Counted from the stretch's first letter, positions 45,505 to 59,249 are shown. The stretch: DNA of 64,000 bases from an uncultured Gemmatimonadales bacterium (GCA_963698975.1 CAVOSV010000001.1:738514-802513); one strand, 5' to 3'. Translations and numbers: made by a program. The notes: a model not told the origin generated them from the letters alone.

Positions 45505-45757
45505 CTACGAGTCTTCGAAGACGTGGGTGATTCGGACGGTCGACGGGAGCCGCTCGACCCGGCTCTCGATCAGCTTCAGATTCGGGATTGTCGCCCAGGC
45601 CAAGGGCATTCAGCCGTTCCGCCTCGGCTCGGGCTACATCACCTGGTGTGGGGCGGCTGGCTGGATACGCATCCTCGTGGTGACGGATCAGGGCCTGCCA
45701 ATACTGGTCACCCGCGCGTTCGATCGACTCTCGGATCTGTTCCCGGGTGAATGCCAT
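45505..45757 (-). pseudogene. Small hypothetical protein, one +1 frame change
   Basis: MAFTREQIRESIERAGDQYWQALIRHHEDAYPASRPTPGDVARAEAERLNALGLGDN, then from ~45590 the protein-like reading is IPNLKLIESRVERLPSTVRITHVFEDS (TAG 45505-45507). The uninterrupted frame gives P/R/A-rich junk. It may instead be the C-terminal part of the upstream membrane protein. Confidence 0.4.
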
Positions 45758-45935
45758 TGTTTTCAGCCTGCTCCGGGGCAAGCTCGATCAGGAAGACGGC
45801 CGACAAGATCAGAAATCCGCCCGCCAGCGGCCCAAAGCGGATGTTTCCGAAGTAGTAGCCCAGTAGAACGAACACGGCCACCATGCCGAGACAACACCAC
45901 CCCGCCACCCGGCGGACCATTTCGCTGATGCCCAT
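45708..45935 (-). CDS. Small two-TM membrane protein (3' end uncertain)
   Basis: MGISEMVRRVAGWCCLGMVAVFVLLGYYFGNIRFGPLAGGFLILSAVFLIELAPEQAE. Beyond ~45760 the frame overlaps the next ORF, which lies one +1 step away. Confidence 0.45.
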   Translation of the reverse strand: MGISEMVRRVAGWCCLGMVAVFVLLGYYFGNIRFGPLAGGFLILSAVFLIELAPEQAENNGIHPGTDPRVDRTRG

Positions 45936-45960
45936 ACTCGTCTCCGAAGAGGGGACGAGT
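45936..45960 (-). other. Stem-loop abutting the start codon of the small membrane protein
   Basis: ACTCGTCTCC-gaaga-GGGGACGAGT: 10-bp stem with one G-T pair, immediately upstream (minus sense) of ATG 45935. Confidence 0.4.
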
Positions 45961-45969
45961 CTAACATGT

Positions 45970-45996
45970 CATACAGCCGGAACCTTCGGCTGTATG
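45970..45996 (-). terminator. Stem-loop terminating the long minus-strand operon
   Basis: CATACAGCCG-gaacctt-CGGCTGTATG: 10-bp perfect stem 16 nt downstream of the stop at 46012. Confidence 0.6.
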
Positions 45997-46011
45997 TCAC
46001 GTCACCGGGCC

Positions 46012-47194
46012 TCAGTGACCGCCAGCAGCCGAGCGGCGGCTGCGAAAGCGTTCCTGGTTCAGCAGAAAGCCGGCCGAACTGGTTGGCACCTGCATCCGGC
46101 CCTGGGAATCCATCGTGAGCGGGATGACATCCGCGTCGGGCCCGAACCACCGCGTGCTGGGCTCCACATCCGAGGGGTAGACGAAGCCCGGCAAGGCCGC
46201 GGCCGCAATAGCGGCCTGGGATCCTATGCCGGATTCGGGCATGGTACCGGCCCACAGCTTGGCGCCGTAGGAGATGGCGAGGGGGTAAATCCGGCAGACC
46301 TCGGTAAGCCCACCCACCCGATGCACCTTGATGTTCCAGACCCGGGGTCCATCCAGCTCAATGATCTGTCGAGCGGCCCGGGCGTCGTGCAGCGTCTCGT
46401 CCACGCATACCGGGGTGCGCAGCTCGTGAGAGAGGCGGGCGTGGCCCACGAGCTCGTCAGGCGGGAGAGGCTGCTCGATGTAAAGCAGATCATTCTGGTC
46501 GAGAGCCCTGCAGGGCGTCTCTCTGCTCGGGCCACTGGTAGGCTCCGTTGGCATCCACCGTCAGGGGCAAACCGGAACCGGCCATGGTTTCCGCTGCAGC
46601 TTTGATCGGGGCAGCATCCCATCCTGGCGCGATCTTGATCTTGACCCGCCGGTATCCTCGAGGGATTGCCTGCTCGATCCACCGCCGGAGGGTTTGGAGC
46701 GATCGGTCCGCCGGAATGCCCAGGGCCACACCGCAGTCGATGGCCGGAGAGCACTCGACGCCGAGCCTGTCAGCGAGAACCTGAGCCAGTCCGGTACCCC
46801 GCCGAGCTGCTTCGAGGTCCCATAGCGCAGTGTCCACTGCGGCGCGGGCAAACCGGTTCCCTCGAATACCATCGTGCAAGACAAAGTCGGCCGCCTGGGA
46901 TGAGCCGGGCTGCGCCTGCAACAGGCGGGGAATCAACACCTGCTCCAGCAGATGGCGGGCGCCCGCCAGCGTTTCCTCGGAGTAAAAGGGCAGCTCGAAG
47001 GGAGGCGACTCGCCCAAACCACGGTTGCCCCGGTCGTCGTACACAATCACGACGAGAGACCGCCGGTGGGTCATGGTGCCGCCAGATATGATGAACGGCT
47101 CCAGCAGCGGCAGAGTCAGCTCATAGAGCTCGACGCGCTCGAGTCGGAAGCCGGTGGAGCTGGCAGCTGCGGAGCTGGTGCTCAGCGAGCTCAT
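46012..47194 (-). pseudogene. Enolase-superfamily enzyme (o-succinylbenzoate synthase / N-acylamino-acid racemase-like); one +1 frame change
   Basis: ATG 47194 gives MSSLSTSS...FRLERVELYELTLPLLEPFIISGG...RRVKIKIAPGWD...LTVDANGAYQW. An extra c near 46515, then LDQNDLLYIEQPLPPDEL...VCVDETL...WNIKVHRVGGLTE...GTMPESGIG. Confidence 0.8.
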
Positions 47195-48339
47195 ACCCGG
47201 CGTGAGGTTCTGCAGATCGAGGAACTTGAGCTCTCCGTCCCGCCGCTCGAGCTGGCCTTCTGCCTCGAGATCGAGCATCCCAGCTACCAGTCCCTCTTTA
47301 GGGTCAAAGATCAGAGCATGCAGGGCACGCTGGGGACGAGACCCGCCGGTGGCAGGGTACTCCGAGAGCGGGAGCTGGAAACAGGTATGCAGCTGGACAC
47401 TTTCGCAGCCGGCCCGGGCGTAGTCGAGGAGAATCCGGCCGCTACACACGTTGCCGCTGCCTACCAGGGGCGGCAACGAGAGGTCGCTCCGGGAAGCCAG
47501 CTCGAGCACCCGGATATTGCGCTCGCTCAGATCGTAGCCGCCATACGCTACGCCTTGCGCCGCGTCCCAGAGCCGGTTGAATACCACCAGCGCGTCGGCC
47601 GAACTGGAGGCGCGCAGCATTTCCAGCTGGAAGCTGTCGTCGAAACGGGCGTTCATCAGCTTCAGCGCGAGGCGGACGGGTCGGCCAGTGCCTCGACGAA
47701 TCTGATCGGGAACCTCTCGTAGCCACCGCAAGTATCTGGTTGCGCTCATCGGCCAGGGCATCTCCCGCCAGCGTGGGAGAGAAATCCTTCTCCAGCGACA
47801 GAGTCTCGTTGCCCCACGCTGCCGCTATGCGCTCGGTGGTATGGCGGTACTCGGCGGACCGAAACGGCTCGTTCAGCCGGGGCAGGTGATACTTGACTGA
47901 GGGCACCGCGACGATCTCTCCCGAGCGGGTGAGATCGCCGGCCGAGCGAACCAGGGAGAGATAGTCTTCGAAGGAGCGGTCCCAGCCTCGGCCCTTTCCA
48001 GGTGACTGTCCACCCCTCTCGTCCGGTTTGAGACTGGCGCCGCTCCACTTTCATCCGCGTTTCGTGGATCGCCCACGCTGCCATGGCGCGCTCCCCAGCC
48101 GGATCCTCCGCGATCACCGTCTTCAGAACGACGAAGGCGAGGCCCGCTGTCCGATCGGTCTCCAGCTGCTCGAGATTGAGCGAGAGTTGACCTGAACCCT
48201 TGCCGATCGGGTGCGGAAGCGGGTGACCCAGGTACCGGGCGCTGAGATCTATCCGGTAGGTATCCCGGACGTAGTTCGGGAAGTCGCGCGGTAGCTCGCG
48301 CTTGAACCGCTCGAAATCACGCTCGAGTCGCTCGCGCAT
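47195..48339 (-). pseudogene. Dihydroorotate-dehydrogenase-like TIM-barrel protein; two +1 frame changes and no in-frame stop
   Basis: IDLSARYLGHPLPHPIGKGSGQLSLNLEQL...FVVLKTVIAEDP. Breaks near 47992 and 47735. VPSVKYHLPRLNEPF...VRLALKLMNARFDD...PPLVGSGNVCSGRILLDYARAGCESVQLHT. It runs in frame into the next gene. An ATGA at 47191-47194 would give a stop in the +1 frame. Confidence 0.65.
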
Positions 48340-49212
48340 CGCGGACTATGCGCTCGACTGCCGCGCGTTCACCGGCTGGAAGTGGAGGTCCCCACGGATC
48401 GTCGCAGGCCTCTGGAGGGAGAGCACCCTCGGCTGCGGCCGCCCAGAGCATACGGCGGATGTAACCCTCCATGGGATCGATGAAGGTAGTCTGGCTGAAT
48501 CGGTCGCACTGCTCGGATAAGGCGACAAAGCGAGGCCAATCTTCGGCCATCCGAGCGCGAAGCAGATCGGCCTGGAGGTCCGGCAGAGCAGAACCCATTC
48601 CGATCAATGCTGCGCGGGCGCCCAGCAGAAGCGAATAGCCCAGAAAACGATCTTCGCCGGTGATGAGCAGCTTGTCGGGATGCTCCCGCAGAGCCGACCG
48701 CGATTCGCTGGAAGGTGATCACAGAATCGAGCGTAGCCACCTTGATCCCAACCACGTTGGGCAGGTCGAGAATCGCGTGCAAGGTGCGGTCGTCGTAGTC
48801 CACCCCGCCGGCAGCCTGATACAAATAGAACGCGATGACCGGCAGCTCCCGGCCGAGCCGCTGGTGATGTCCAACGGGATCATTGGACTGGGGGAAGGCC
48901 AGCAGAGCGTCGGCCTTTCCCCGGCGAGCTTCGATGGCCATGGTAATGTCGCGGGCACCGGCAACCAGCACGCGATCCGGCAGCGCCTCGCGCCAGGTAT
49001 CGAGCACCAGCCTGCGCTGCTCCGAGCTGAGGTGAGGGCCTCGTCCGGTGTGAGCCCAGACCGCCACCCCGCCCACCGGCTGCCCTGCCATCCAGCCGGC
49101 ATACGAGCGCTGCGCAGCCGAATCGAGATCTCCGCCGCGAAACGGGAACCGGTACCGCCGGGATCAGTGCGCCATCGAGACGCTGGATCAATGAGCTGAT
49201 GTCTGCGGTCAC
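48317..49212 (-). pseudogene. DapA/N-acetylneuraminate-lyase-family (class I aldolase-like) protein; two +1 frame changes
   Basis: GTG 49212 overlaps the upstream TGA. IPAVPVPF|RGGDLDSAAQRSYAGWMAGQPVGGVAVWAHTGRG...VVGIKVATLD...|LREHPDKLLITGEDRFLGYSLLLGARAALIGMGSALP. Breaks near 49133 and 48696. Confidence 0.65.
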
Positions 49213-50017
49213 GCCTTCACCCGGCGAGTCTTGCTCTTGAGCGAGCTCCGGCAAAGCGCCAACGCGTTCTCCGCCTCTATGGCCGAGCGGTGCTCGGAAC
49301 TGAGGTTAAGAAGGTCCAGCTTGGCGACGCTGTTCTCCGGCAGCCGAAGCGGCTGACCGGTCCCAAAGACAAAGCGGTCCACTCCAACCGTGCCCAGCAG
49401 GGTCTCCAGGTGATCCTCCGGCGGACCCCATATCCAGCAGATGTCCCACCAGATTCGGGCGGACTCCTCAGGGGTGGACCCGAAGTGCACCTCCTCCACG
49501 AAGCTCCGGTCAGCGTGGGTGATGAGCAGACCGCAGGGCGGGATCGGCGCGCAGCAGTGTTCTGACTGCCGCTGCCGTCAGCTCCGGGAGCGCGGTCGTT
49601 AGGGTGGCGCTGCCGAGCGTCTTCGAGACGCACTGCCATGATCAGCGCCATGTTCTCACCGGCACAGGCCTGCACCAGTGATCGCATGTCGGGTCCGGTC
49701 GGTTCGAGCCCGTAGTAGTTCGGATCACATCTCACCGCCGGCGCGCCGCGAGATCGAGCCTCCCGGATGCCTTGCTCCCAACCCTTGAGCCCGGGATGAA
49801 TCGCGGGAACCGGACGCAGTTGCTCGCTGCTGTCAGTGATCTGGTATAGCCACGGGTTTCCCTCTGCCGGGTCTCGCCAGAACACACTGGGCAGGTGGCT
49901 GATCCACGCCTGATCCACGCCAATCCGGTCCATGGATTGGAGCACCGCCTCTACCGAGGTCCCGGGCACTCGCCGGAAGGGATAGGCCCCCACGAAGCTA
50001 TTGACGTCGAGGCGCAT
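49209..50017 (-). pseudogene. Amidohydrolase-2-type TIM-barrel metal hydrolase; two +1 frame changes
   Basis: MRLDVNSFVGAYPFRR...WISHLPSVFWRDP...MAVRLEDARQRHPNDRAP|ELTAAAVRTLLRADPALR|LLITHADRSFVEEVHFG...DRFVFGTGQPL. Breaks near 49587 and 49530. Confidence 0.7.
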
Positions 50018-50817
50018 CAATCGGTGGGGAACGCGTTAGGTGGAAAGATCCGGGCAGCATTGCGCCACCGAATCAGCTCGAGCTGGGCAGGGGAAAGCAG
50101 ATGTTCCAGGTAGCGCAGCTTGGCCCAGCCGGTATCGATAGTGAGATCACAGCCCCAGACCAGCCGCTCCACACCCACGGCCTGGATACAAGCCTCCAGC
50201 ATTCCACCGTCCACGCCGCTGCCGGACAGGTCAACGTACACGTTGGCAAGCGACCGAATGGCCGCCAGCGAGTGGATCCAGTCACCCCCGCCGCCGATGT
50301 GGGCCAGCAGGAAGTTGACGCGGGGATGACGGGCGGCCAGCGCTCCCAGCTCGATCGCGTCGCTCGCCTCTTGTCCCGGGTAATCCCGCCGCCGGTGTTG
50401 CCAGATGTGGTGGAGTACGGGGACACCGCGCTCATCCGCTACCCGACAGATCGGGTCCAGCAGAGGATCGTCCGCCCTGCGGCTCGCCGCCAACTTGATT
50501 CCAACCATGCCGGCGTCCAGGCAGCGAGCCAGCTCCCTTAGCGCGTGCCCCTGAAAGTTCGGATTGACGACGGCGTAGCCGCGGATTCCCGCGGCATGCT
50601 GCCGCTGGAGGGCCAGGAGGAAGTTGTTGCCGTACTCGATGTCAGTGGGAGAGGGGAAGTAGATGGGAGAGGTGGCGCCCCAGCTGCCGAGAATCGAGGC
50701 GACGTGGACCGTAATACCGACGCGCTCCCCGGCTCGCAACCGGCTGGCATTGCGTTCTCGCCAGTCGGAGCGGGGGGAGCGATCGTGCAGGAAATGGGCG
50801 TGAACGTCGATGAGCAC
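50017..50817 (-). CDS. Amidohydrolase-family TIM-barrel metal hydrolase (intact)
   Basis: GTG start with GAGGAAG upstream. LIDVHAHFLHD (HxH), GIKLAA, PVLHHIW, FLLAHIGGGGDW, RLVWGCDL (terminal Asp). Confidence 0.8.
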   Translation of the reverse strand: MLIDVHAHFLHDRSPRSDWRERNASRLRAGERVGITVHVASILGSWGATSPIYFPSPTDIEYGNNFLLALQRQHAAGIRGYAVVNPNFQGHALRELARCLDAGMVGIKLAASRRADDPLLDPICRVADERGVPVLHHIWQHRRRDYPGQEASDAIELGALAARHPRVNFLLAHIGGGGDWIHSLAAIRSLANVYVDLSGSGVDGGMLEACIQAVGVERLVWGCDLTIDTGWAKLRYLEHLLSPAQLELIRWRNAARIFPPNAFPTD

Positions 50818-50829
50818 CCGTTGCTTCCT

Positions 50830-50997
50830 CTATTCCTCCTCTTCGGGCAGATTCTGAGGCAGCCCTCCCAGACCCGCCTCACTCTCATCGGTCACTGTCA
50901 ACTTCAGATCAGCGTTGCTTGCGACCTCTTCTTCCAGCGTGCCGTCTTCATCGTCCACATCGTCGAGATCATCGACGGTAGGTTTGCGCGGTGACAT
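50830..50997 (-). CDS. 55-aa highly acidic small protein inside the operon
   Basis: AGGAGGA 4-5 nt upstream of ATG 50997. MSPRKPTVDDLDDVDDEDGTLEEEVASNADLKLTVTDESEAGLGGLPQNLPEEEE. Its stop lies within the SD of the next gene. Below the ORF-track cutoff. Confidence 0.55.
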   Translation of the reverse strand: MSPRKPTVDDLDDVDDEDGTLEEEVASNADLKLTVTDESEAGLGGLPQNLPEEEE

Positions 50998-51036
50998 GTC
51001 TCCTCCTGTGCGGTAAAAAACAGACTACCCCACAAT

Positions 51037-52296
51037 TTAGGCAGGTTTGGCCACGGTCGAGAGGGCCTCGGCCAGTACGGCGAGCGAGCGATCGACCGTG
51101 GCTCGATCGTGAGCCAGGGAGACGAAGTTGTAGGCCGAACGCTTGAACAGCAGGCCCGCGTGGGCGCAGGCTGCCGTTACCGAACGGGATACGGTGTCGT
51201 CCGCGTAATGGAGAAAGCACATCTCCGGAATACCGCCGATGCCAGTCACAAGGTCGGGATGGTCGCGCTGCAACCGATGCAAGCCCTCCAGCAGCCCGCC
51301 GCCGACTTGCTGAAGATGAGCCGGTACCCGCCTGGACACCATGACCTGGAGAGTGGCAAGGGCAGCTGCCAGGGAGACGAACTCGGTGGCCAAGGTGGAG
51401 GAGATCCAGGTGCGCATGGCACCCGCCATTACCTCCCGGCGGCCGCCCACTGCCGCCAACGGAAAGCCGTTGGCCAGAGCCTTGCCCATAACAGTGAGAT
51501 CGGCCCGGATACCATAGCGTTCGCCGGCGCCTCCAACTGCGAGCCGGCAGATGGTCTTGATCTCATCCACGATGAGAACGGCCCCTGACCGAGTGGTCTC
51601 TTCCCGCAGTACCTCGAGCCAGGCGGCTTCGGGCTCGGCGACAATCACCGGCTCGAACACCACGGCGGCGAGCCGGTCTCCCGCTGAACGGATCAGCTCC
51701 CTCGCGCGATCGGCATCGTTGAAGGGGAGCTCAGAGTACAAGGCGCGGGTGGCTGAAGGAACGCCGGCAGCACCCTGAGACCAGTCGAGCCAGCCGTGAT
51801 AGCCGCAGCCCAGCACGTGGTCCCGGCCGGTGAACACTCGAGCCAGGCGAACCGCCGCAGCCATGGCCTCTGCACCGGTTTTCAGAAACCGAACCTGCTC
51901 GATCCAGGGGATCAGGCGGCAGATTTCGCCGGCAACCTCCTCTTCCAGCACGGGAGCAAGCGGACCGACCACACCGTTGCTCGCCGCGAGAGTGACCGCC
52001 CGCGTCACCTCGGGGTGGGCATAGCCCAGGGCCACCGACCCCAGGCCCATGATGTAGTCGATGTATTCGCGGCCCTGCTCGTCCCACACACGATAGCCGG
52101 ACGAGCGAGTCATCCGGCTGGGCAGATCGGGTTCAGGGGAACCGAAGAACGTGTCGGGACGCTTGCTGCCGGTAGAGGTAAATCCCGGGATGTGTTCCGT
52201 CACGGTACCTCGCGCGCTGAAGTCAGCCGAGCTCGAGCGTTCCAAGCCGCGCAGGATCTTGCCGGTCGCCTCGGAGCCAAACCCATCCTCCCCCAC
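51037..52296 (-). CDS. Class III (PLP) aminotransferase, glutamate-1-semialdehyde aminomutase-like
   Basis: GYRVWDEQGREYIDYIMGLGSVALGYAHPEV, FLKTGAEAMAAAVRLAR, LIVDEIKTICRLAVGGAGERYGIRADLTVMGKALANGFPLAA (PLP Lys). Confidence 0.85.
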   Translation of the reverse strand: MGEDGFGSEATGKILRGLERSSSADFSARGTVTEHIPGFTSTGSKRPDTFFGSPEPDLPSRMTRSSGYRVWDEQGREYIDYIMGLGSVALGYAHPEVTRAVTLAASNGVVGPLAPVLEEEVAGEICRLIPWIEQVRFLKTGAEAMAAAVRLARVFTGRDHVLGCGYHGWLDWSQGAAGVPSATRALYSELPFNDADRARELIRSAGDRLAAVVFEPVIVAEPEAAWLEVLREETTRSGAVLIVDEIKTICRLAVGGAGERYGIRADLTVMGKALANGFPLAAVGGRREVMAGAMRTWISSTLATEFVSLAAALATLQVMVSRRVPAHLQQVGGGLLEGLHRLQRDHPDLVTGIGGIPEMCFLHYADDTVSRSVTAACAHAGLLFKRSAYNFVSLAHDRATVDRSLAVLAEALSTVAKPA

Positions 52297-54957
52297 CGCT
52301 CCAGACCAGCTGGCCGGCTCGGCGAAGCCGATCGGGGAGCATCTGATTGATCAGGAGGTCGAAACCGATCTCCTCCCCCGGCCGGAATTCACCCCAACCC
52401 GGCGGAGCCATGGTGACAGTGAGAAGGTACCCCGCTTCTGTGGCAGACCAGCCCCCGGTGACCTGATCGGGCGCGCCCGCAGTTCCTTCCACTCCCCGAA
52501 CGATAAGCTCTCCGGTTTTGGAGGGAACGATCAGGACCCCGGAGCCAACCTCCTCCTCGGGAAGCCTGACGTACAGCTGAATTCCGTCGGCGTGAATCTC
52601 GTCCGGCTCGTTGTCCAGCCGGAGCGGCGCCGCCGCGGGATCGCGGAGGACGAGCTCCGGTTTGGTCACTTCTACCGCCACATGCAAACCGGCATCCCTC
52701 CAGTTCACGTACGCGCGGGCAGAAAATTCGTCGGGGCCTCCATATGGCTCTTCACTGCGACGGTACTGGTCTTCGTGATCGAGCTCGAGCGGCTCGCTGG
52801 TGTCGAACCCATCCAGGCTCCCGTCCAGTGCAGGTGCTTCGGCGACTTGAGGCGCGACTCCACGGGCGACCAGAGGACGATTCTGCATCAGCGGCTGGAA
52901 GGGAGCCGCCGCCTTCCGGCTCCCTCGAAGCCGGATCGTCTCCCGTTCGGACCGAACCTCCCAGCCTTCGACCGTCGAGACATGCCGTTCGACGCCCGAT
53001 CCGGATTGCACCTCGACTCCGCTCTCGGTAACCCGCAGCTCCGTTACCGCCGGGGTGGTCCCCGGCTCGAGCAGTGTCGCGATGCGAAGTTTTCGGCCGG
53101 TGGAGCGCAGCAGATAAAACGGCATTGTTTCACCCGTGCCCGGTATGCCCGGTCCTGTGGCCCGAATCAGATCACCCGGAAGGTCGATCACTGCGCTGAT
53201 TCTGGCGCCCGCTTTGCCGGAGGAGCTGAGACGGAACGGCCCCGGCGAATCGGGGACGAAACGTTGTGCGTCGGCGACGAATTCGTCGCTCAGCTCGGCT
53301 GGGCATCCAGTGGCCCGGTACGGTCACCTCGCTATGTCCGCTCAGGTGCAGAGGAAGCTCGAGCAGCTGATCGGAGGCCGAGGAGAGATCGAGGATGTCC
53401 AGCAGGTAATTGGGTCCGGAGACCAGAGTCCGGGTGAGATCACCGAACCTGCCCCGGGCCCAGCCCCACTCTCCCTGCTGGTCGAAGTTGTCGCACAGCG
53501 CATCACCCGGCCGCTGCGACACGCCGTCCAGACGGGGAGCGTTGTGGGCCAGCGTCGAACGGTACCAGAAGAGGTCCCGTGCGACGTACGAGCCGGTGCC
53601 AAGGTCCGGTAGCCAGTACTCCCCATCGGCGTGGAGCACGAGATTCAGGCGGTCGGGGTGTCCGTGTCCTCCACCATGGGCCCCGCATTCCAGACTGGCG
53701 TAGCGGTTGCCGTGGCGCAGAATGGCGAGCCCCTGTCCCTCGAAAAACACGCTTCCCGGGGACCAGGCCCCAGTGCCCTCAGGAAGACTGGGCAGCATCT
53801 CCAGCAGAGACCACCAGGAGAGATCGGCACGAGTCCGGGGCGCGGTAGGCGGAGCTTCGCCGGCCTCGTGCAGATAGGAGTCGAAAGTCTGAGCCGGGGG
53901 CGCGGGTGTCTCGGTACAGAAGACGGAGCCAGTCCCATAATTCCGGTTGCGGAATGCCGGCTCGCTCCAGGCGCGCCAAACCAACTTCCCAAAGCTCGAG
54001 GTACATCGGCTGCGCCAGAGACACTCCGAACCGCGAGTCCTTGCGCGCGGGGAAGGTACCATCGGGCAGGGCGGTCAGAGCCGGTGCCCGCAGTGCGGCA
54101 CTCATTCGTTCGGCGAGCTGTGAGTCAGCCAGCAGGTCGACGCCGGCCTGGCGAGCCCAACCCATGGCTACCAACTGGCCCCGCAGGGCAAACAGGTGGT
54201 AGTTATCGCCCTCGAACCACATCCCGTCGGGCCCAAATCCCTGGAGCAGATGGGTCAGGATGCCGCTAGGTCCCTCGAGCATCCGGGTGGCCAGTTCCTC
54301 GTCCTCGAACCACACAGCAACCGCGGCAAGCGCGGCGTTGTGCCAGGTTTGCCGGTTCGACAGACCCTCATCGAACTCGCCAATCAGATTGGCGGCCTCA
54401 TCCGCAACGGCGGCCACGACCTCCGCCGTTTCCGCCTGCAGCAGCCCTCCATCGCGAAGCAGCGTGGCGGCCGCCAGGTAGTTCGTCAGCCAGATAGACT
54501 CGAGATAGGTGGAGAAGAAGAGTCTGCTGGGCCCCAGCACGTTGTCGCGGTTGGGATACGCAGGGTAGTTCTGATATGCTTGGAGGACGCTATTGGCCCG
54601 GGTAGCGGCGTCTTCACGACCGCCCAGAGACGCCAGCGTGGCCAGATGAGCGGCTCGCTCCGCCACCCACAGATGTTGATAATGGGCCCAGGCCCTGTCG
54701 TGCCGCTCGCCAGTGAAACGGCGCCCACATCGGGGACAACGGTGCTCGGTGGGACTCCAGGGATCGAACTCGAGCCGGCCACCGTGTTCGGGACAGACTC
54801 CGCCATCCGCGGTCAACAAGGCCTTTGCATGATGAACCAGCGGCGTGCGCTGTAACACTGGTGCCGCTCGCTGTGCCAGCCGCTCCAGCAGTGCAGCCAA
54901 TTCTGGAGACCCAACGATCTCCTGCTGCCGCGTTTCCAGCTCCTCTGCCGTTAACAC
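52223..54957 (-). pseudogene. Heparinase II/III-like protein with a CBM9-like C-terminal module; two +1 frame changes
   Basis: N-terminal alpha/alpha region with CPEHGGRLEFDPWSPTEHRCPRCGRRF. Break near 53913-53916. HGGGHGHPDRLNLVLHADGEYWLPDLGTGSY...WYRSTLAHNAP. Break near 53299-53303. C-terminal DNEPDEIHADGIQLYV...GFDLLINQM. Confidence 0.75.
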
Positions 54958-55964
54958 AGGTAGACCCCTCTCATCGCCCAGGATACTGGGAGGACGCGGG
55001 CACCCAGATTTTGAGCGGCCGCCATCATCGCTGACGGGTCATCGGGACCCAGAAAGAACATGCACCCCCCCGCGCCCGAACCCGCCGCCTTTCCGCCGAG
55101 TGAGCCCGCGCTCGCCATAGCCCGCTCGAGGTCGACCATTTCTGAAGTCGACATTCGGGCGTCCAACGCGAGCTGGTGGCGCCAGTTCTGGCTGAGCAGC
55201 TGTCCAACACGGGAGAAGTCCGCGGCGACGAGCGCGCCGGCCATGGCATCCGCAACATCCCGAAGTCCATGGAGTGCGTCATGTACGCTGGGATCGCCGT
55301 GCTCGTACGCGCGCATCACCCGCTCGATGGTGGTGCCGGAGAAGCGGGAGGCCCCGGTGTAGCACAGTACGAGGCGCCGAGCCAGCTGCGCCATGAATTC
55401 CGGATCCAGCTTGAGCCGCTCAACCTCAGCCTGAGGATCACGAAAGGACAACCGAAGAAAGCCACCATACGAGGAGGCGAACTGGTCCTGTCGTCCGCCC
55501 CGCACTGCCGCCTCCACCGCTTCCAAATGACAGGCGGTCTCGGCGATTTCGAATGGATCGCGGGTCTCGCCTCGAGCGGAGCTCAAGGCGGCGACCAGGG
55601 CCACATCGAGGGCTCCGGAGCTGCCCAGTCCGGAGCCGGGCGGCGCATCGGTGCGGGTCAGCAGCGTGCATCCACCGACCGGCAGCATTCGAAGCCCGGC
55701 CTTCTGCAGGTCCAGTCTTCCGTTGCGAACCAGACCGGAGGAATCGCTGACCTCCAGCTGGTCGTGGAGATCTTCGGCAATGAGACGGAAGCCGGTGCCT
55801 CCCACCCGCACCTCGGCGCGGGCGAAGAGCCGGATGGCGGCGGTTACCACGACGCCTCCTTCTCGAGCGGAGAAGGGCGGAACGTCGGTCCAGCCTCCAG
55901 CGAGATCCAGACGCACCGGTGCCGTGGCCGCGAAGGCGGGCTCGCTCACCGGCTCACCCACCAC
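54951..55964 (-). CDS. GHMP-family sugar kinase (HddA/fucokinase-like)
   Basis: APVRLDLAGGWTDVPPF, TDAPPGSGLGSSGALDVALV (GHMP motif II), GGKAAGSGAGGCMFF (motif III). An alternative GTG at 55949 forms a GTGA overlap with the upstream stop. Confidence 0.8.
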   Translation of the reverse strand: MVGEPVSEPAFAATAPVRLDLAGGWTDVPPFSAREGGVVVTAAIRLFARAEVRVGGTGFRLIAEDLHDQLEVSDSSGLVRNGRLDLQKAGLRMLPVGGCTLLTRTDAPPGSGLGSSGALDVALVAALSSARGETRDPFEIAETACHLEAVEAAVRGGRQDQFASSYGGFLRLSFRDPQAEVERLKLDPEFMAQLARRLVLCYTGASRFSGTTIERVMRAYEHGDPSVHDALHGLRDVADAMAGALVAADFSRVGQLLSQNWRHQLALDARMSTSEMVDLERAMASAGSLGGKAAGSGAGGCMFFLGPDDPSAMMAAAQNLGARVLPVSWAMRGVYLC

Positions 55965-57397
55965 CGCTGCACCGTAGGTAGCTCTCCACGCAGGTCCATC
56001 GTCACCCCGTGGACCCGGCGGTTCATACCCTGTAGACCTCGGGGATGATAGAGAAAAGCCGCAGGCACGGAATCAGCAATCAGCTGTTGGGCCAGCCCGG
56101 GATCGGACGGAACCCGGATGCCGGCGAGAGAAGCGAGCGGACCGAGGTATCCCAGCGCAAGGTCGCCCGGGATGCCCAGTACGGCAGCCTGAAAATCGTG
56201 CGACCGGCCATAGACCCGGGCCAGAAAGGCTGAGAGCTCGAGCTGGCGCAGCGTGACGTCAAAGCCGGCGCTCTTCAGCCGAGCCTGGAGCATCTGCTCC
56301 AGGGCGGCCTCTCCACTCCCTACCGTCAGTAGCTCGAACGCCGTGCGGGAGCCGTTCGACGCCGGAACCGGGCCTACTGCGGACACACGCACAGGAACAT
56401 AGCCTGGAGCCGTCGGGGGAACCGGGCCCTCGGCGGGTGTCCCAAATCCGTAGATGTAACCGTCCACCAGCTCCTTACGATCGATTGCGGAGCTGACCGC
56501 CCGACGCAAGCTCAGCTGGTCGAACGGTGGGCGGCGAGTGTTGAACAGCACTGCGTCGGTCCACAGAAGCGGATAGGTGAGAACCGCAAGCTCGGGGTTA
56601 TGGCGGACAAACTCAGCGTGTGCCGGCTGGATGCCGGCGAAGTCGAGCTCGCCCGAGGTAAGCGCCGCCAGCTTGGTAGTGGGTTCATTCACCACTACCA
56701 CGATGAAGCGGTCCAGCCGGGGTGGTCCACCCAGGGCGGCCGGAAATGAGCGGTTGGCGCTGAAGACCCATCGCCGGTTCGCCTCATGGGAAACGAACCT
56801 GAACGGTCCGTTGCCAACCGGCGAGCTGTTCCAACCCGCCTGCCGCAGATCAGCCGGTTTCACTCCCAGAAAGAGATGGGCCGGGAGAATGGCGAGGTCT
56901 GTCAGCAGATCGGGGAAAGTGCGCTGGGCCTCTCGAAAACGCACGACCACGCTCGAATCGTCCGGAGCCGAAACGGTGTCGAACGCGATCATCTCGTTCT
57001 GCCGGGGATAGCCTGTGGCGGGATCGCGCGCGGTGTTGAGGGTCCAGACCACGTCCCGCGCCGTGGTGGGAAGACCATCATGCCAGTACACGCCGGTCTG
57101 AAGGTCGAGAGTGAGTGTTCGATGATCCTGCGACCAGCGCCAGGATCGCGCCAGATAGGGCTGCGCCGTCATGCTACTGTCGTAGCGCGCTAGTGTGGTG
57201 AGCAGCACGTAGCGCTGGACCTGCCGGGCCAGCGGGTGGACCGTGAGCAGTGGATTGATGCTTTGCAGGTCGGCGCCCGAGGCAAACAGCACGGTAGCGC
57301 CGCGGCGCTCCGCGCTCGAGCCGCAGGCGACGACACCAATAGCCAGGAGAGGAATCGAGAGGTGGCGCCCGAGCACGGCGTATTTTAGCGGCAACAC
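55946..57397 (-). CDS. ABC transporter substrate-binding lipoprotein, family 5 (peptide/opine/nickel type)
   Basis: Lipobox LLAIGVVACGSS. GATVLFASGADLQSINPL, YWHDGLPTTARDVVWTL, typical family-5 length (483 aa). Confidence 0.8.
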   Translation of the reverse strand: MLPLKYAVLGRHLSIPLLAIGVVACGSSAERRGATVLFASGADLQSINPLLTVHPLARQVQRYVLLTTLARYDSSMTAQPYLARSWRWSQDHRTLTLDLQTGVYWHDGLPTTARDVVWTLNTARDPATGYPRQNEMIAFDTVSAPDDSSVVVRFREAQRTFPDLLTDLAILPAHLFLGVKPADLRQAGWNSSPVGNGPFRFVSHEANRRWVFSANRSFPAALGGPPRLDRFIVVVVNEPTTKLAALTSGELDFAGIQPAHAEFVRHNPELAVLTYPLLWTDAVLFNTRRPPFDQLSLRRAVSSAIDRKELVDGYIYGFGTPAEGPVPPTAPGYVPVRVSAVGPVPASNGSRTAFELLTVGSGEAALEQMLQARLKSAGFDVTLRQLELSAFLARVYGRSHDFQAAVLGIPGDLALGYLGPLASLAGIRVPSDPGLAQQLIADSVPAAFLYHPRGLQGMNRRVHGVTMDLRGELPTVQRWWVSR

Positions 57398-57412
57398 TGT
57401 CTACATTGAACC

Positions 57413-58391
57413 ATGGTGAGAGCACTCTTGCGCCGCGCCTTCACCGGCCTCGCCGTGGTTCTGGGCGTGGTCACTCTCATGTTTTTTCTCATCCGGCTCG
57501 CGCCCGGCGACCCCGCCCTCCTCCTCGTTGGACCCACGGCTTCAGAGGAACAATTGGCTGCTCAGCGGAAAAGCCTCGGGCTGGACCGGCCCCTGCCGCA
57601 GCAGTACGTCAGCTGGCTGGCTCGATTTACCCGGGGGGACTGGGGCACCAGCATTGCAACCGGCCGCCCCGTAAGTGCGATGATCTCCGAAGCGTGGCCT
57701 GCCACCGTTCGTCTGGTAGGGCTCTCGCTGCTCTTGAGCTATGTCCTGGGGCTCGGCGTTGGTGCGATCCAGGCCGCCAGCGGCGGCCGCGTGGACACCT
57801 CGTTGTCGGTGGTTACCGTGACGCTATTTGCTCTGCCCGGCTATTGGCTGGGCCTCATGCTGGTGATGGTTTTCACCTACTGGGCCAGGGCTCTGCCTGC
57901 GTTCGGCGCAGCAGGCTTCGACGCCGACTTTCTGACCGGCTGGAGCCGGATGGCAGATCGGCTCCGCCACCTGGCCTTGCCCCTGACCACCCTGACGCTC
58001 ATCGGTGTCGGTGGCGTCGCGCGGTACGTGAGAGGGGCAATGCTCGATGTGCGCAACGCGCCCCACGTCGCGGTGGCACGGGCCAAGGGACTTTCACCCG
58101 CGGAGGTGAATCTTCGGCACGTGCTGCGGCAACGCCCTCATCCCGGTGGTAACCCTGTTGGGTCTTTCGTTGCCTGCCCTCTTTTCGGGCGCGGTGTTCA
58201 TCGAGTCCATCTTTGCCTGGCCGGGTGTCGGCCGCATCATGGTCGAAGCGGTAGGAGCGCGGGACTACCCGGTTATCATGGCGGCGACCGCCGTGAGCGC
58301 AGCCCTGGTGGTAGCGGGCAACCTGGTGGCCGAGCTCCTGACCGCATGGGTTGATCCGAGGGTACGTACCGCACCCGCGGGCGCCCAGTGA
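57413..58391 (+). pseudogene. ABC transporter permease (DppB/OppB-like); one +1 frame change
   Basis: LGVVTLMFFLIRLAPGDP...VARAKGLSPAEVNLRHVLR. An extra c at ~58130, then NALIPVVTLLGLSLPALFSGAVFIESIFAWPGVGR (TGA 58389-58391). Confidence 0.85.
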
Positions 58392-59249
58392 TGTTCCCGT
58401 CGCACTCCCTGCTCCAGGACCGGCGGGCGCAGTTCGGGCTGGCGGTGATCCTGTTGGCCATTGCGGTGGCATTGGCGGCTCCACTCCTGGCCGGCGATCC
58501 GGTGGTGCAACGGGACATCGTCGCCACCCGCTTCCTGCCACCACTTCAGTACCGATGTGCACGGCGCTTTTCACGCCCTGGGCACCGACCGCTTCGGACG
58601 CGACGTATGGGCTCGTCTGGCCTATGGCGCCCGGATCTCCCTCGGAGTCGGGGTGCTCGCTGTGCTGCTCTCGGTGACAATCGGGGTCCTGATCGGAGCT
58701 GCTTCAGGCTTCTGGCCTGGCGCGATAGGCACCCTGCTGCTGGGGCTGACCGACTTCGCATTGGCGCTTCCACGAGTGGTGCTCCTGCTGCTGCTCGCCT
58801 CGCTGTGGCAGCCGAGTGCCGCTCTGGTGGTCGCTGTGCTGGGCTTGACCGGTTGGATGACGGTGGCGCGCCTGGTGCATGGAGAGGTTCGGGCTCTTTC
58901 CGCGCGCCCTTTCGTGGAGAGTGCTGTTGCCCTTGGGGTCAGAGGCCCGCGAGTACTGGTGCGACACATCCTGCCCAACGCCATGACTCCGGTGATCGTC
59001 ACTGCGGCGCTCGGTGTCGGCAACGCCATCATGCTGGAGGCCGGGCTCTCGTTTCTGGGACTGGGAGTACAGCCTCCGACCCCGTCCTGGGGCAACCTGA
59101 TCGCCTCGGGCCGAGATACCCTGGTCAATGCCCCGTGGGTAGCGACTGCGCCCGGAGTAGCGCTGGTACTGGTGGTGGTTGCGGCAACGCTACTGGGAGA
59201 TGCGCTGCGGGATCGGATGGATCCGGCTCAGCGCCGGGAAGTGAACTGA
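58388..59249 (+). pseudogene. ABC transporter permease (DppC/OppC-like); one +1 frame change
   Basis: GTGATG at 58388 overlaps the upstream stop. The break near 58547 separates ...VATRFLPPL from STDVHGAFHALGTDRFGRDVWARLAYGARISL...FVESAVALGVRGPRVLVRHILPNA. Confidence 0.85.

What the first reader, a model, noticed from the sequence alone, without database searches (positions are those of the whole stretch)
46012..57397. Ten-gene, ~11-kb minus-strand operon with an enzyme mix I cannot map to a known pathway
Transcription order, with overlapping or near-abutting stops and starts throughout: family-5 solute-binding lipoprotein, GHMP sugar kinase, heparinase II/III-like protein, class III aminotransferase, 55-aa acidic protein, two amidohydrolase-type TIM barrels, DapA-like aldolase, DHOD-like flavin TIM barrel, enolase-superfamily racemase/OSBS-like enzyme, then a terminator hairpin at 45970-45996. 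Two ABC permease genes are divergent from it. The set combines peptide/opine-type uptake with lyase-like, kinase, transaminase, hydrolase, aldolase and racemase chemistry. This suggests uptake and stepwise breakdown or remodelling of an amino-sugar-acid or peptide-conjugated compound, but that is speculation.
Basis: partly seen in the sequence, partly recalled or inferred. Interest (0 to 1): 0.65.

Follow-up and report, generated by a model that had tools for sequence, protein, structure and literature searches.

The report
Conserved Gemmatimonadales acidic-sugar uptake and breakdown operon
This is a real gene cluster, shared by many soil Gemmatimonadales, that most likely imports and dismantles an unidentified acidic sugar compound using several unstudied enzyme families; in this assembly half of its genes look broken only because of one-base assembly errors.

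Summary
The ten genes are there, in the stated order. However, five of them (the heparinase-like gene, the second amidohydrolase, and the DapA-like, DHOD-like and enolase genes) are frame-broken in the window. Eight independent metagenome runs lack exactly one base at each of 11 sites, and removing those bases restores all ten ORFs. The breaks are therefore assembly errors, not decay.

The cluster is syntenic and intact in about 80 Gemmatimonadales genomes, and it is modular. The core is SBP, two permeases, a PL17-like lyase, a class-III aminotransferase and an amidohydrolase pair. The GHMP kinase, the acidic ORF and the DapA-like/DHOD-like/enolase triad are later additions.

A GH38 alpha-mannosidase is a constant neighbour. 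In some lineages it is translationally coupled to the cluster.

The same lyase, aminotransferase, GH38 and triad recur in a distant 6.4-Mb genome behind a sugar-type ABC transporter. The DapA-like/DHOD-like pair also sits beside heparinase II/III genes in cultured Paenibacillus. This argues for one sugar-directed pathway rather than chance adjacency.

The substrate and most of the chemistry remain unknown. The best guess is an imported acidic, mannose-linked and possibly amino-sugar oligosaccharide that is cleaved in the cytoplasm by a uronate lyase.

The parts
55946..57397 (-). Family-5 solute-binding lipoprotein (483 aa, lipobox VVAC)
   Evidence: Pfam SBP_bac_5, 219 bits. 72% identical to intact relatives.
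54951..55964 (-). GHMP sugar kinase of the HddA/WcbL/Fkp clade (anomeric C1 kinases)
   Evidence: Pfam GHMP_kinases_N and _C. NCBIfam best match HddA, 124 bits, far below the 600-bit cut-off. Nearest solved structures are the WcbL and HddA heptose kinases, then fucokinase. The gene is absent from the deep-branching versions of the cluster.
52223..54957 (-). About 913-aa cytoplasmic PL17-like lyase-fold protein with an N-terminal Cys3His insert and a CBM9-like tail. It is broken by one-base insertions at 53299 and 53912.
   Evidence: Pfam Alginate_lyase plus Hepar_II_III_C, and a weak CBM9 match. The AF2 model has pLDDT 88.6. The best folds are PL17 oligoalginate lyases (E 1e-24, TMt 0.70-0.73), and the tail matches CBM9. 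Catalytic and zinc residues of Alg17c are kept.
51037..52203 (-). Class III (GSA-aminomutase-like) aminotransferase. The likely start is GTG 52203, not 52296.
   Evidence: Pfam Aminotran_3, 148.6 bits. NCBIfam PRK06209, 219 bits, below cut-off. The start was placed by homology of the N-terminus in relatives. It is linked to the lyase-like gene in every lineage examined in which a contig extended far enough to show the adjacent genes.
50830..50997 (-). 55-aa acidic ORF with the conserved N-terminal motif MSPRKPT(I/V)DDLDD(I/V)DDEDG
   Evidence: The peptide is conserved in the genus and close relatives but absent where AT and AH1 abut. No family match.
50017..50817 (-). AH1, an Amidohydro_2 protein with an intact HxH metal motif
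   Evidence: Pfam Amidohydro_2, 93.6 bits. A profile search gives only distant ACMSD-type decarboxylases. HxH is present in 53 of 58 homologues.
49209..50020 (-). AH2, a degenerate Amidohydro_2 paralogue lacking HxH (it has D-V-N-x-F instead). It is broken at 49529 and 49586.
   Evidence: It always follows AH1.
48317..49203 (-). DHDPS/NAL-family (DapA-like) protein that keeps the GIK Schiff-base lysine. It is broken at 48697 and 49143.
   Evidence: Pfam DHDPS, 26.8 bits. PDB DHDPS E 1e-8. Orthologues are 44-50% identical in Paenibacillus, Terriglobia and G041.
47190..48339 (-). DHOD/DPD-like FMN TIM barrel. It is broken at 47728 and 47992, and fused in frame to the next gene by the insertion at 47199.
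   Evidence: No Pfam hit. The AF2 model has pLDDT 88.1 and matches the DPD FMN domain and DHODs (E 3e-14, TM about 0.6). Orthologues are 46-50% identical in several phyla.
46002..47194 (-). NSAR/OSBS-subfamily enolase-superfamily enzyme. It is broken at 46509 and 46044.
   Evidence: TIGR01928, 223 bits against a cut-off of 200.65. PDB 3mwc 285 bits; Thermus and Deinococcus N-acylamino acid racemases about 210-220 bits.
45925..46011 (-).
57413..59243 (+). Two divergent Opp/Dpp-type ABC permease genes. The first is frame-broken near 58131-58144.
   Evidence: No ATPase is encoded at the locus. The genome's only OppD/F-type pair lies on another contig.
42781..45437 (-). GH38 alpha-mannosidase, co-directional and downstream, with several frame breaks. 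It is a functional partner of the cluster.
   Evidence: Present next to the cluster in 46 loci. It is coupled to the AH2 stop in L064 and L096. Pfam GH38 domains.
45584..45920 (-). Two conserved small ORFs between the enolase gene and GH38: a roughly 55-aa two-helix membrane protein and a roughly 100-aa protein beginning M(P/A)FTREQIRES. The second is frame-broken here.

Best explanation
This is an accessory catabolic locus of the order Gemmatimonadales. It takes up an acidic (uronate-containing), mannose-linked and possibly amino-sugar oligosaccharide or glycoconjugate, and dismantles it in the cytoplasm.

Shown:
- The genes are intact in the population; the window carries 11 one-base insertion errors.
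- The cluster is syntenic across the order.
- The lyase-like protein has a PL17 fold with the PL17 catalytic Tyr/Tyr/Asn and the zinc site.
- GH38 is a constant partner.
- The same enzyme set recurs in unrelated genomes behind sugar-type ABC importers.

Inferred steps:
1. The lipoprotein SBP and two permeases import the compound, powered by the genome's single OppD/F pair encoded elsewhere.
2. The signal-peptide-less lyase-fold protein cleaves a 4-linked uronate by beta-elimination, with its CBM9-like tail holding a sugar end.
3. GH38 removes alpha-mannose.
4. The HddA/Fkp-type GHMP kinase phosphorylates a released (manno-type) sugar at C1.
5. The GSA-aminomutase-like transaminase handles an amino or aldehyde group.
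6. The AH1/AH2 pair (one catalytic subunit, one degenerate) performs a hydrolytic or decarboxylating step.
7. The DHDPS-like, DHOD-like and NSAR-like triad converts the resulting keto-deoxy (N-acyl-amino) sugar acid into central metabolites.
For: Assembly errors:
- Eight runs lack one base at each break, and removing those bases restores all ORFs.

Synteny:
- Intact copies exist in same-genus genomes and in 80 Gemmatimonadales loci.
- The lyase-like gene is present in 59 of 121 sampled genomes of the phylum, in 33 of 74 genera.

Lyase:
- A profile alignment to Alg17c keeps N201, Y258, H413, H415, D433, Y450 and H464.
- These residues are invariant across 24 homologues down to 24% identity.
- Foldseek's top hits are PL17 enzymes, and the tail matches CBM9.

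GH38:
- It is a neighbour in 46 loci and overlaps the AH2 stop in two lineages.

Cross-lineage recurrence:
- G041 has CUT1 SBP, permeases, AT, GFO/IDH/MocA, the lyase-like gene, GH38, DHDPS-like, DHOD-like and enolase genes together.
- Paenibacillus fonticola and Paenibacillus sp. alder61 have heparinase II/III, CUT1 transporter, GFO/IDH/MocA, AP_endonuc_2, M20, DHOD-like and DHDPS-like genes together.
- A third G041 copy of the triad lies beside a DUF4962/heparinase protein.

Other points:
- The genome has no KduI and no GH88/GH105, so it lacks those two canonical enzymes for unsaturated uronates.
- The enolase is not MenC: there is no MenB over cut-off, and the futalosine-pathway family MqnA/MqnD is present.
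Against: - No substrate, transcript or enzyme activity has been observed.
- The SBP belongs to the peptide/nickel/opine family, not a classical sugar family.
- The cluster is modular. Family f3 and many f1 genomes lack the triad. Deep lineages lack the kinase and carry a SpoU-type methyltransferase between the lyase and the aminotransferase. So not every gene need act on the same molecule.
- In Terriglobia the triad sits with a GNAT and an MFS transporter and no lyase. This points to an N-acyl-amino-acid-like small molecule.
- The closest fold neighbours of the lyase also include a C5-epimerase, dermatan sulfate epimerase 1.
- His202 of Alg17c is Arg here.
Confidence: 0.55

Rival explanations
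1. Three independent units lie side by side and serve different substrates: (A) importer, lyase-like protein and aminotransferase; (B) the amidohydrolase pair; (C) the DHDPS-like/DHOD-like/enolase triad. The triad would be a free-standing route for an N-acyl amino acid or similar small acid.
For: - Modules are present or absent independently.
- In Terriglobia the triad occurs with a GNAT and an MFS transporter and without a lyase.
- G041 lacks an AH1 orthologue.
- A DHOD-like gene stands alone in L116.
Against: - The triad, or its DHDPS-like/DHOD-like pair, sits beside heparinase-fold genes in Gemmatimonadales, in G041 (twice) and in Paenibacillus.
- Stops and starts overlap across module borders in intact relatives.
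- GH38 is found on either side of the cluster.
Confidence: 0.2
2. It is a peptide, opine or N-acyl-D-amino-acid salvage system. A family-5 SBP imports a peptide-like compound. The NSAR-like racemase, amidohydrolases, transaminase and (in some lineages) a DAO-type oxidase process the amino-acid part.
For: - The SBP family.
- NSAR/OSBS membership with the K-x-K, K263 and R266 motifs (direct reading, PMC12006748).
- DAO genes are inserted in some loci.
- M20 or GNAT neighbours of the triad occur elsewhere.
Against: - The N-succinyltransferase and M20 desuccinylase of the known NSAR pathway are absent from this locus.
- The core partners are a PL17-fold protein with a CBM9 tail, GH38 and a sugar 1-kinase.
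- Distant versions use sugar-type CUT1 transporters, GFO/IDH/MocA and AP_endonuc_2 enzymes.
Confidence: 0.1
3. The heparinase-like protein is a uronate C5-epimerase or another non-degradative enzyme. On this reading the locus remodels or salvages a sugar, for example into a nucleotide-sugar pool through the C1 kinase, rather than burning it.
For: - Dermatan sulfate epimerase 1 is the best non-PL17 fold neighbour.
- The GHMP kinase belongs to a biosynthetic or salvage clade (HddA, Fkp).
Against: - No nucleotidyltransferase is in the locus.
- The Tyr/Tyr/Asn set and zinc site of exolytic PL17 enzymes are kept.
- An importer plus aldolase-type and amidohydrolase-type enzymes fits catabolism better.
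Confidence: 0.1
4. The operon is decaying in this organism: the frameshifts are real and five genes are pseudogenes.
For: The window as deposited has 11 frame breaks in 11.4 kb, plus more in the neighbouring GH38 and permease genes.
Against: - All 11 differences are one-base insertions in the window.
- No premature stop lies in the restored frames.
- Contigs 99% or more identical to the window, from several independent studies, lack the extra base.
- The genome is a 3-contig MAG, and broken genes occur elsewhere in it, for example an MqnA/D-family gene split over three frames.
Confidence: 0.03

Closest known systems
ABC-importer-coupled cytoplasmic exolytic uronate lyases (PL17 Alg17c of Saccharophagus degradans; PL15 Atu3025 of Agrobacterium)
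   Same: - (alpha/alpha) toroid plus beta-sandwich fold.
- PL17 enzymes are the best structural match.
- Catalytic Tyr258 and Tyr450, Asn201 and the His/Asp/His zinc site are kept.
- No signal peptide.
- Encoded next to an ABC importer.
   Different: - Only about 15% identity.
- It scores 25.7 bits against the oligoalginate-lyase equivalog, whose cut-off is 1400 bits.
- His202 is replaced by Arg.
- It has an extra Cys3His insert and a CBM9-like C-terminal domain.
- The downstream genes are not the DEH reductase, KdgK and KdgA set.
Oxidative uronate pathway of Agrobacterium tumefaciens (Udh, Gli, Gci, KdgD, KGSADH)
   Same: It uses the same three superfamilies after the sugar-acid stage: an amidohydrolase-superfamily enzyme, an enolase-superfamily enzyme and a DHDPS-family enzyme (from my own knowledge of that pathway).
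   Different: - There is no uronate dehydrogenase and no aldehyde dehydrogenase in the locus.
- The enolase is NSAR/OSBS-type, not Gci.
- The DHDPS-like protein matches no KdgD model.
- A DHOD-like flavoprotein and a class III transaminase have no counterpart in that pathway.
N-succinylamino acid racemase (NSAR/OSBS subfamily) pathways of Geobacillus, Thermus and Deinococcus
   Same: - The enolase passes the TIGR01928 cut-off.
- It is 210-285 bits to solved NAAAR/NSAR-type proteins.
- It has the K163/K263 lysines and R266 (direct reading; PMC12006748).
- The organism uses the futalosine route, so OSBS is not needed.
   Different: - The partner N-succinyltransferase and M20 desuccinylase are absent.
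- The gene context is glycan-directed.
- The triad's enolase in G041 is only 27% identical to this one.
Xanthan oligosaccharide breakdown in Bacillus sp. GL1 (lyase plus GH38 alpha-mannosidase)
   Same: A uronate lyase is combined with an intracellular GH38 alpha-mannosidase for a mannose-glucuronate glycan (from my own knowledge).
   Different: - A different lyase family is used (PL8).
- That route uses a GH88 unsaturated glucuronyl hydrolase, which this genome lacks.
- It has no aminotransferase, amidohydrolase or triad.

Membership tests
PL17 oligoalginate lyase | (alpha/alpha)6 toroid plus antiparallel beta-sandwich fold | tested here: met
   The AF2 model has pLDDT 88.6. The Foldseek top ten are all PL17 (E 1e-24 to 1e-22, TMt 0.69-0.73).
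PL17 oligoalginate lyase | Catalytic Tyr258 and Tyr450, Asn201/His202, and the zinc site His415/Asp433/His464 (Alg17c numbering, recalled from the Alg17c structure paper) | tested here: inconclusive
   The profile alignment keeps N201, Y258 (Y253 here), H413/H415 (H431/H433), D433 (D451), Y450 (Y457) and H464 (H471). H202 is Arg202. All are invariant in 24 homologues.
PL17 oligoalginate lyase | Sequence membership (NCBIfam equivalog NF042990) | tested here: not met
   25.7 bits against a cut-off of 1400.
PL17 oligoalginate lyase | Beta-elimination activity on oligo-uronates | not testable with these tools
   Needs an enzyme assay.
NSAR/OSBS subfamily (enolase superfamily, MLE subgroup) | Family model score | tested here: met
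   TIGR01928, 223.1 bits against a cut-off of 200.65.
NSAR/OSBS subfamily (enolase superfamily, MLE subgroup) | K-x-K, Asp/Glu/Asp metal ligands, second catalytic Lys, and Arg three residues after it (R266) | tested here: met
   Direct reading of the intact orthologue: RVKIKV, VDANG, IEQP, LDES, NIKVHR. The roles of K163, K263 and R266 are taken from PMC12006748.
NSAR/OSBS subfamily (enolase superfamily, MLE subgroup) | Biological role as MenC in menaquinone synthesis | tested here: not met
   No MenB over cut-off in 40 of 41 relatives, including this genome. The MqnA/MqnD family is present in 37 of 41.
NSAR/OSBS subfamily (enolase superfamily, MLE subgroup) | Operon partners of the known NSAR route (GNAT succinyltransferase, M20 desuccinylase) | tested here: not met
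   Neither is in the window cluster.
Dihydroorotate / dihydropyrimidine dehydrogenase FMN domain | FMN-binding TIM-barrel fold | tested here: met
   Foldseek matches the DPD FMN domain at E 3e-14 and DHODs at E 1e-11, with TM about 0.6.
Dihydroorotate / dihydropyrimidine dehydrogenase FMN domain | Pfam DHO_dh membership | tested here: not met
   No Pfam hit. NCBIfam PRK07565 gives 30 bits against a cut-off of 303. PF01180 is precomputed for only some homologues.
Dihydroorotate / dihydropyrimidine dehydrogenase FMN domain | Catalytic Ser/Cys on the flexible loop after beta-4, and FMN phosphate motif | tested here: inconclusive
   The invariant motif F-S186-P-T follows strand 179-185 and precedes a low-confidence loop. 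The motif GTGNIxSG is present. The correspondence is by reading, not by superposition.
DHDPS / N-acetylneuraminate lyase family | Schiff-base Lys in the GIK motif, and family model | tested here: met
   Pfam DHDPS, 26.8 bits against a cut-off of 22.1. VIGIKVAT is read.
DHDPS / N-acetylneuraminate lyase family | Equivalence to DapA, KdgD, NanA or KDG aldolase | tested here: not met
   All NCBIfam scores are 19-25 bits, against cut-offs of 206-390 bits for the three models that matched.
Opp/Dpp-type ABC importer | Family-5 SBP, two permeases and two ATPases | tested here: inconclusive
   The SBP and both permeases are present. No ATPase is at the locus. One OppD/F-type pair lies elsewhere in the genome.
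Agrobacterium oxidative uronate pathway | Udh, Gli, Gci, KdgD and KGSADH all present | tested here: not met
   Only superfamily-level analogues of three of the five are present.

The most novel reading that the evidence does not exclude
The DHDPS-like plus DHOD-like pair, usually with an MLE-type enolase, is an undescribed cross-phylum route for the products of heparinase-II/III-fold lyases. It would replace KduI/KduD and the GH88/GH105 hydrolases. In this route the orphan DHOD-like flavoenzyme acts on the C4=C5 bond next to the carboxylate and ring oxygen of a 4,5-unsaturated (amino)uronate. This is the same O/N-C(COOH)=C arrangement that DHOD handles in orotate. Alternatively, it desaturates the N-acyl-alpha-amino-acid form of an oxidised 2-acylamido sugar. 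The NSAR-like enzyme would epimerise at C2, and the NAL-like enzyme would cleave the sialic-acid-like 2-keto-3-deoxy-4-hydroxy-5-acylamido acid.
Probability: 0.2. Interest if true: 0.85.

Novelty: new variant of a known kind. Interest (0 to 1): 0.6.

Why it matters
Gemmatimonadales are abundant in soils and rhizospheres, yet what they eat is poorly known. This locus is present in about half of the sampled genomes of the phylum. It contains at least four enzyme families with no characterised member:
- a PL17-like lyase with a CBM9 tail;
- an AH1/AH2 amidohydrolase pair;
- an orphan DHOD-like flavoprotein;
- a divergent DHDPS-like enzyme.

The DHDPS-like/DHOD-like pair is 44-50% identical across Gemmatimonadota, Bacillota and Acidobacteriota, and it repeatedly sits next to heparinase-fold genes. 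Working it out could reveal a new way of metabolising lyase-derived sugar acids. It could also add a polysaccharide-lyase family to the catalogue. Cultured Paenibacillus strains carry a version, so the question can be tested at the bench.

Tried and rejected
- **MenC role for the enolase.** Rejected: no MenB, and the futalosine pathway is present.
- **Real pseudogenisation.** Rejected.
- **Internal terminator between the aminotransferase and the acidic ORF (51025-51044).** The T-run is not conserved in relatives, and such sites are not above chance.
- **Reductive pyrimidine catabolism (DPD, dihydropyrimidinase, beta-alanine transaminase).** I considered this because of the DPD-like fold plus amidohydrolases and a class III transaminase. 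I rejected it as the main reading. The amidohydrolases are Amidohydro_2 (ACMSD-like), there is no ureidopropionase and no Fe-S partner, and the conserved partners are lyase-fold and GH38 proteins.
- **Single-sequence PDB searches** for AH1, AH2 and the DHOD-like protein found nothing.
- **RNA evidence.** Only one run of unknown type holds the sequence, and its contigs are too short to span junctions.
- **Literature searches** for this gene combination found nothing relevant.
- **The genome-contig scan** returned only Gemmatimonadales loci plus one, labelled Acidimicrobiia, with the same gene order. Distant contexts had to come from the 50%-identity representatives instead.
- **The context of the 38%-identical GHMP kinase in family f2** (next to an M20 peptidase and RNase H) was uninformative.

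Full report
**Observation.**
The window is part of a 3.93-Mb, 3-contig metagenome-assembled genome. Protein names of close homologues place it in the Gemmatimonadales. The run labels are rhizosphere and soil metagenomes.
- SBP_bac_5
- GHMP kinase
- Alginate_lyase plus Hepar_II_III_C with a weak CBM9 tail
- Aminotran_3
- a 55-aa acidic ORF with no family
- two Amidohydro_2 proteins
- a weak DHDPS match
- a protein with no Pfam match
- an MR_MLE enolase-superfamily protein

The two divergent permease genes are there, and so is the hairpin at 45970-45996.

**Frame breaks.**
As deposited, only five of the ten genes are open. tblastn with intact orthologues shows that the lyase-like, AH2, DapA-like, DHOD-like and enolase genes are each spread over two or three frames.

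I laid contigs of eight public runs from several studies on the stretch. At 46044, 46509, 47199, 47728, 47992, 48697, 49143, 49529, 49586, 53299 and 53912 they lack exactly one base of the window. This includes contigs with one to three other differences in about 300-430 bases. No run has an extra base. Deleting these 11 bases restores ten uninterrupted ORFs of the lengths seen in relatives.

The site at 47199 also explains the apparent in-frame fusion of the DHOD-like and enolase genes. Other genes of this assembly are broken in the same way (permease, GH38, and an MqnA/D-family gene). I conclude that these are consensus errors of the assembly, not pseudogenes.

**Conservation and anatomy.**
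Same-genus genomes carry the whole cluster intact and tightly packed, with overlapping stops and starts. A scan of one genome per species returned 80 loci. All are labelled Gemmatimonadales/Gemmatimonadota apart from one labelled only 'uncultured bacterium' and one labelled Acidimicrobiia, and all have the same order.

The cluster is modular:
- The permeases, SBP, lyase-like gene, aminotransferase and AH1-AH2 are present in nearly all loci long enough to show them, though a subset of loci lacks AH1-AH2.
- The DapA-like/DHOD-like/enolase triad is present in about 33 loci.
- A SpoU-type methyltransferase sits between the lyase and the aminotransferase in 32 loci.
- A DAO-type oxidase is inserted in a few loci.
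- The acidic ORF, which has a conserved N-terminal motif, occurs only in this genus and its close relatives.

More divergent versions (27-38% identical lyase-like protein) read GH38 | permeases | SBP-lyase-SpoU-AT-AH1-AH2 | alternative complex III, with no kinase. The lyase-like gene is found in 59 of 121 sampled genomes of the phylum. That fits an accessory trait, not a housekeeping one.

**GH38.**
A GH38 alpha-mannosidase is next to the cluster in 46 loci. It lies either beyond the permeases or after the enolase gene, as in this window (42781-45437). In two triad-less lineages its start overlaps the AH2 stop. Two small conserved ORFs lie between the enolase gene and GH38.

**The proteins.**
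- *Lyase-like protein.* It has no signal peptide. Its AF2 model (pLDDT 88.6) is closest to PL17 oligoalginate lyases, and its last 200 residues or so match CBM9. In a profile alignment to Alg17c the catalytic Tyr258 and Tyr450, Asn201, His413 and the zinc ligands are kept, while His202 is Arg. These residues, and a Cys3His insert, are invariant or nearly so over 24 homologues down to 24% identity. It is far below the oligoalginate-lyase model cut-off. I read it as a new PL17-like family, not as a PL17 member.
- *Kinase.* It belongs with the HddA/WcbL heptose kinases and with fucokinase, which are anomeric C1 kinases.
- *Aminotransferase.* It is glutamate-1-semialdehyde-aminomutase-like. Its true start is probably GTG 52203.
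- *AH1 and AH2.* AH1 keeps the HxH metal motif. AH2 never has it. This suggests a catalytic/non-catalytic pair.
- *DapA-like protein.* It keeps the Schiff-base lysine but matches no named subfamily.
- *DHOD-like protein.* It has no Pfam match, but its model (pLDDT 88.1) matches the FMN domain of dihydropyrimidine dehydrogenase and DHODs.
- *Enolase.* It passes the OSBS/NSAR model cut-off and has the subfamily's lysines and Arg266. The genus uses the futalosine route and has no MenB, so this enzyme is not MenC.

**One pathway or neighbours?**
The decisive evidence comes from distant genomes. In a 6.4-Mb, 67% GC genome (G041) a single gene string holds the following: a CUT1 sugar-type SBP and permeases, a class III aminotransferase (39% identical), a GFO/IDH/MocA oxidoreductase, the lyase-like protein with CBM9 (33%), GH38 (31%), the DapA-like (50%) and DHOD-like (50%) proteins, and an MLE-type enolase. 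Its DHOD-like protein is 70% identical to a Symbiobacteriaceae MAG protein.

That genome has three copies of the triad, one of them beside a DUF4962/heparinase protein.

In cultured Paenibacillus fonticola and Paenibacillus sp. alder61 the DHOD-like/DapA-like pair (44-48% identical) follows a heparinase II/III gene, a CUT1 transporter, GFO/IDH/MocA, AP_endonuc_2 and an M20 peptidase.

In a Terriglobia MAG the triad sits with a GNAT and an MFS transporter and no lyase.

So the link between heparinase-fold proteins and the DapA-like/DHOD-like pair is repeated across phyla with different transporters. This argues against chance adjacency and for a sugar substrate. The GNAT, M20 and NSAR associations suggest that the intermediate handled by the triad looks like an N-acyl amino acid.

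The window's genome has no KduI and no GH88/GH105. If the lyase makes unsaturated uronates, something else must process them.

**Mechanism.**
Everything from here on is inference. An acidic oligosaccharide is imported. The only OppD/F ATPase pair is encoded on another contig. The oligosaccharide is cleaved by beta-elimination at a 4-linked uronate and trimmed by GH38. A released sugar is phosphorylated at C1. The uronate-derived keto-deoxy acid, possibly 2-acylamido-substituted, is processed by the transaminase, AH1/AH2 and the triad.

A chemically attractive but untested idea concerns the DHOD-like enzyme. It may act on the C=C bond adjacent to the carboxylate and ring heteroatom of the unsaturated uronate. 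This is the same arrangement as in orotate.

**Comparison and novelty.**
The closest known kind is an ABC-importer-coupled cytoplasmic exolyase system (Alg17c, Atu3025). The downstream enzymes resemble the Agrobacterium oxidative uronate route only at superfamily level. No paper in the searchable library describes this gene combination.

Earlier notes of this scan on sister genomes reached similar readings. I treated them as leads. I re-derived independently the frame-break explanation, the GH38 link and the cross-phylum triad.

**Verdict.**
This is a real, conserved but uncharacterised catabolic locus. In this window it is marred by assembly errors. It is a new variant of a known kind, and its triad may hide new chemistry.

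Noticed in passing
window 46044-53912 (11 sites); also 58131-58144 and 42781-45437: There is a local hot spot of one-base insertion errors in this 3-contig MAG. Every site is an extra base relative to independent contigs. An MqnA/D-family gene on contig 3 of the same genome is also split over three frames.
   Followed up: yes
window 57397-57413: The start codons of the SBP gene (GTG 57397, minus strand) and the first permease gene (ATG 57413, plus strand) are only 15 nt apart. Both promoters must therefore lie inside the opposite coding region, or the transcripts start elsewhere.
   Followed up: no
window 45756-45920 and 45584-45757 (minus strand): Two small ORFs between the enolase gene and GH38 are conserved across relatives. 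One is a roughly 55-aa protein with two hydrophobic helices (...GYYFGNIRF.PLAGGF...). The other is a roughly 100-aa protein starting M(P/A)FTREQIRES, which is frame-broken in the window.
   Followed up: partly
window 45925-46011: A strong double hairpin (-43.7 kcal/mol, z -4.9) without a U-tract follows the enolase stop. It is unique in the window and absent at the same place in two relatives.
   Followed up: partly
L044 12736-13542; L036 12921-13670; L099-L101, L103: A SpoU-family (SPOUT) methyltransferase gene sits between the lyase-like gene and the aminotransferase in 32 Gemmatimonadales loci and in all four divergent versions whose contig reaches that position. It is absent from this window's lineage. 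An RNA-type methyltransferase conserved inside a sugar operon is unexplained.
   Followed up: partly
L011 9850-9982; L012 (same junction): In two relatives the conserved N-terminus of the aminotransferase (…TEHIAGFTSTGSKRP…) has no ATG, GTG or TTG upstream in frame. This suggests a non-canonical start codon, possibly CTG.
   Followed up: no
G000 contig 2, 2040273-2041422: The genome has only one pair of OppD/OppF-type ATPase genes, far from this locus. This pair presumably serves every family-5 importer of the cell.
   Followed up: partly
L105 13366-15658 and L110 6274-8593: In the distant genome G041 a pair of proteins with no family match (about 196 aa and about 555-562 aa) recurs next to both a lyase-containing cluster and a triad-containing cluster.
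   Followed up: no
L108 (G041:C22:210086-211267): One of the three DHOD-like paralogues of G041 is reported with an in-frame TGA.
   Followed up: no
L015 and L101, downstream of AH2: In several lineages the cluster is followed by lgt and/or the alternative complex III operon. This flank is conserved and helps trace the ancestral arrangement.
   Followed up: partly
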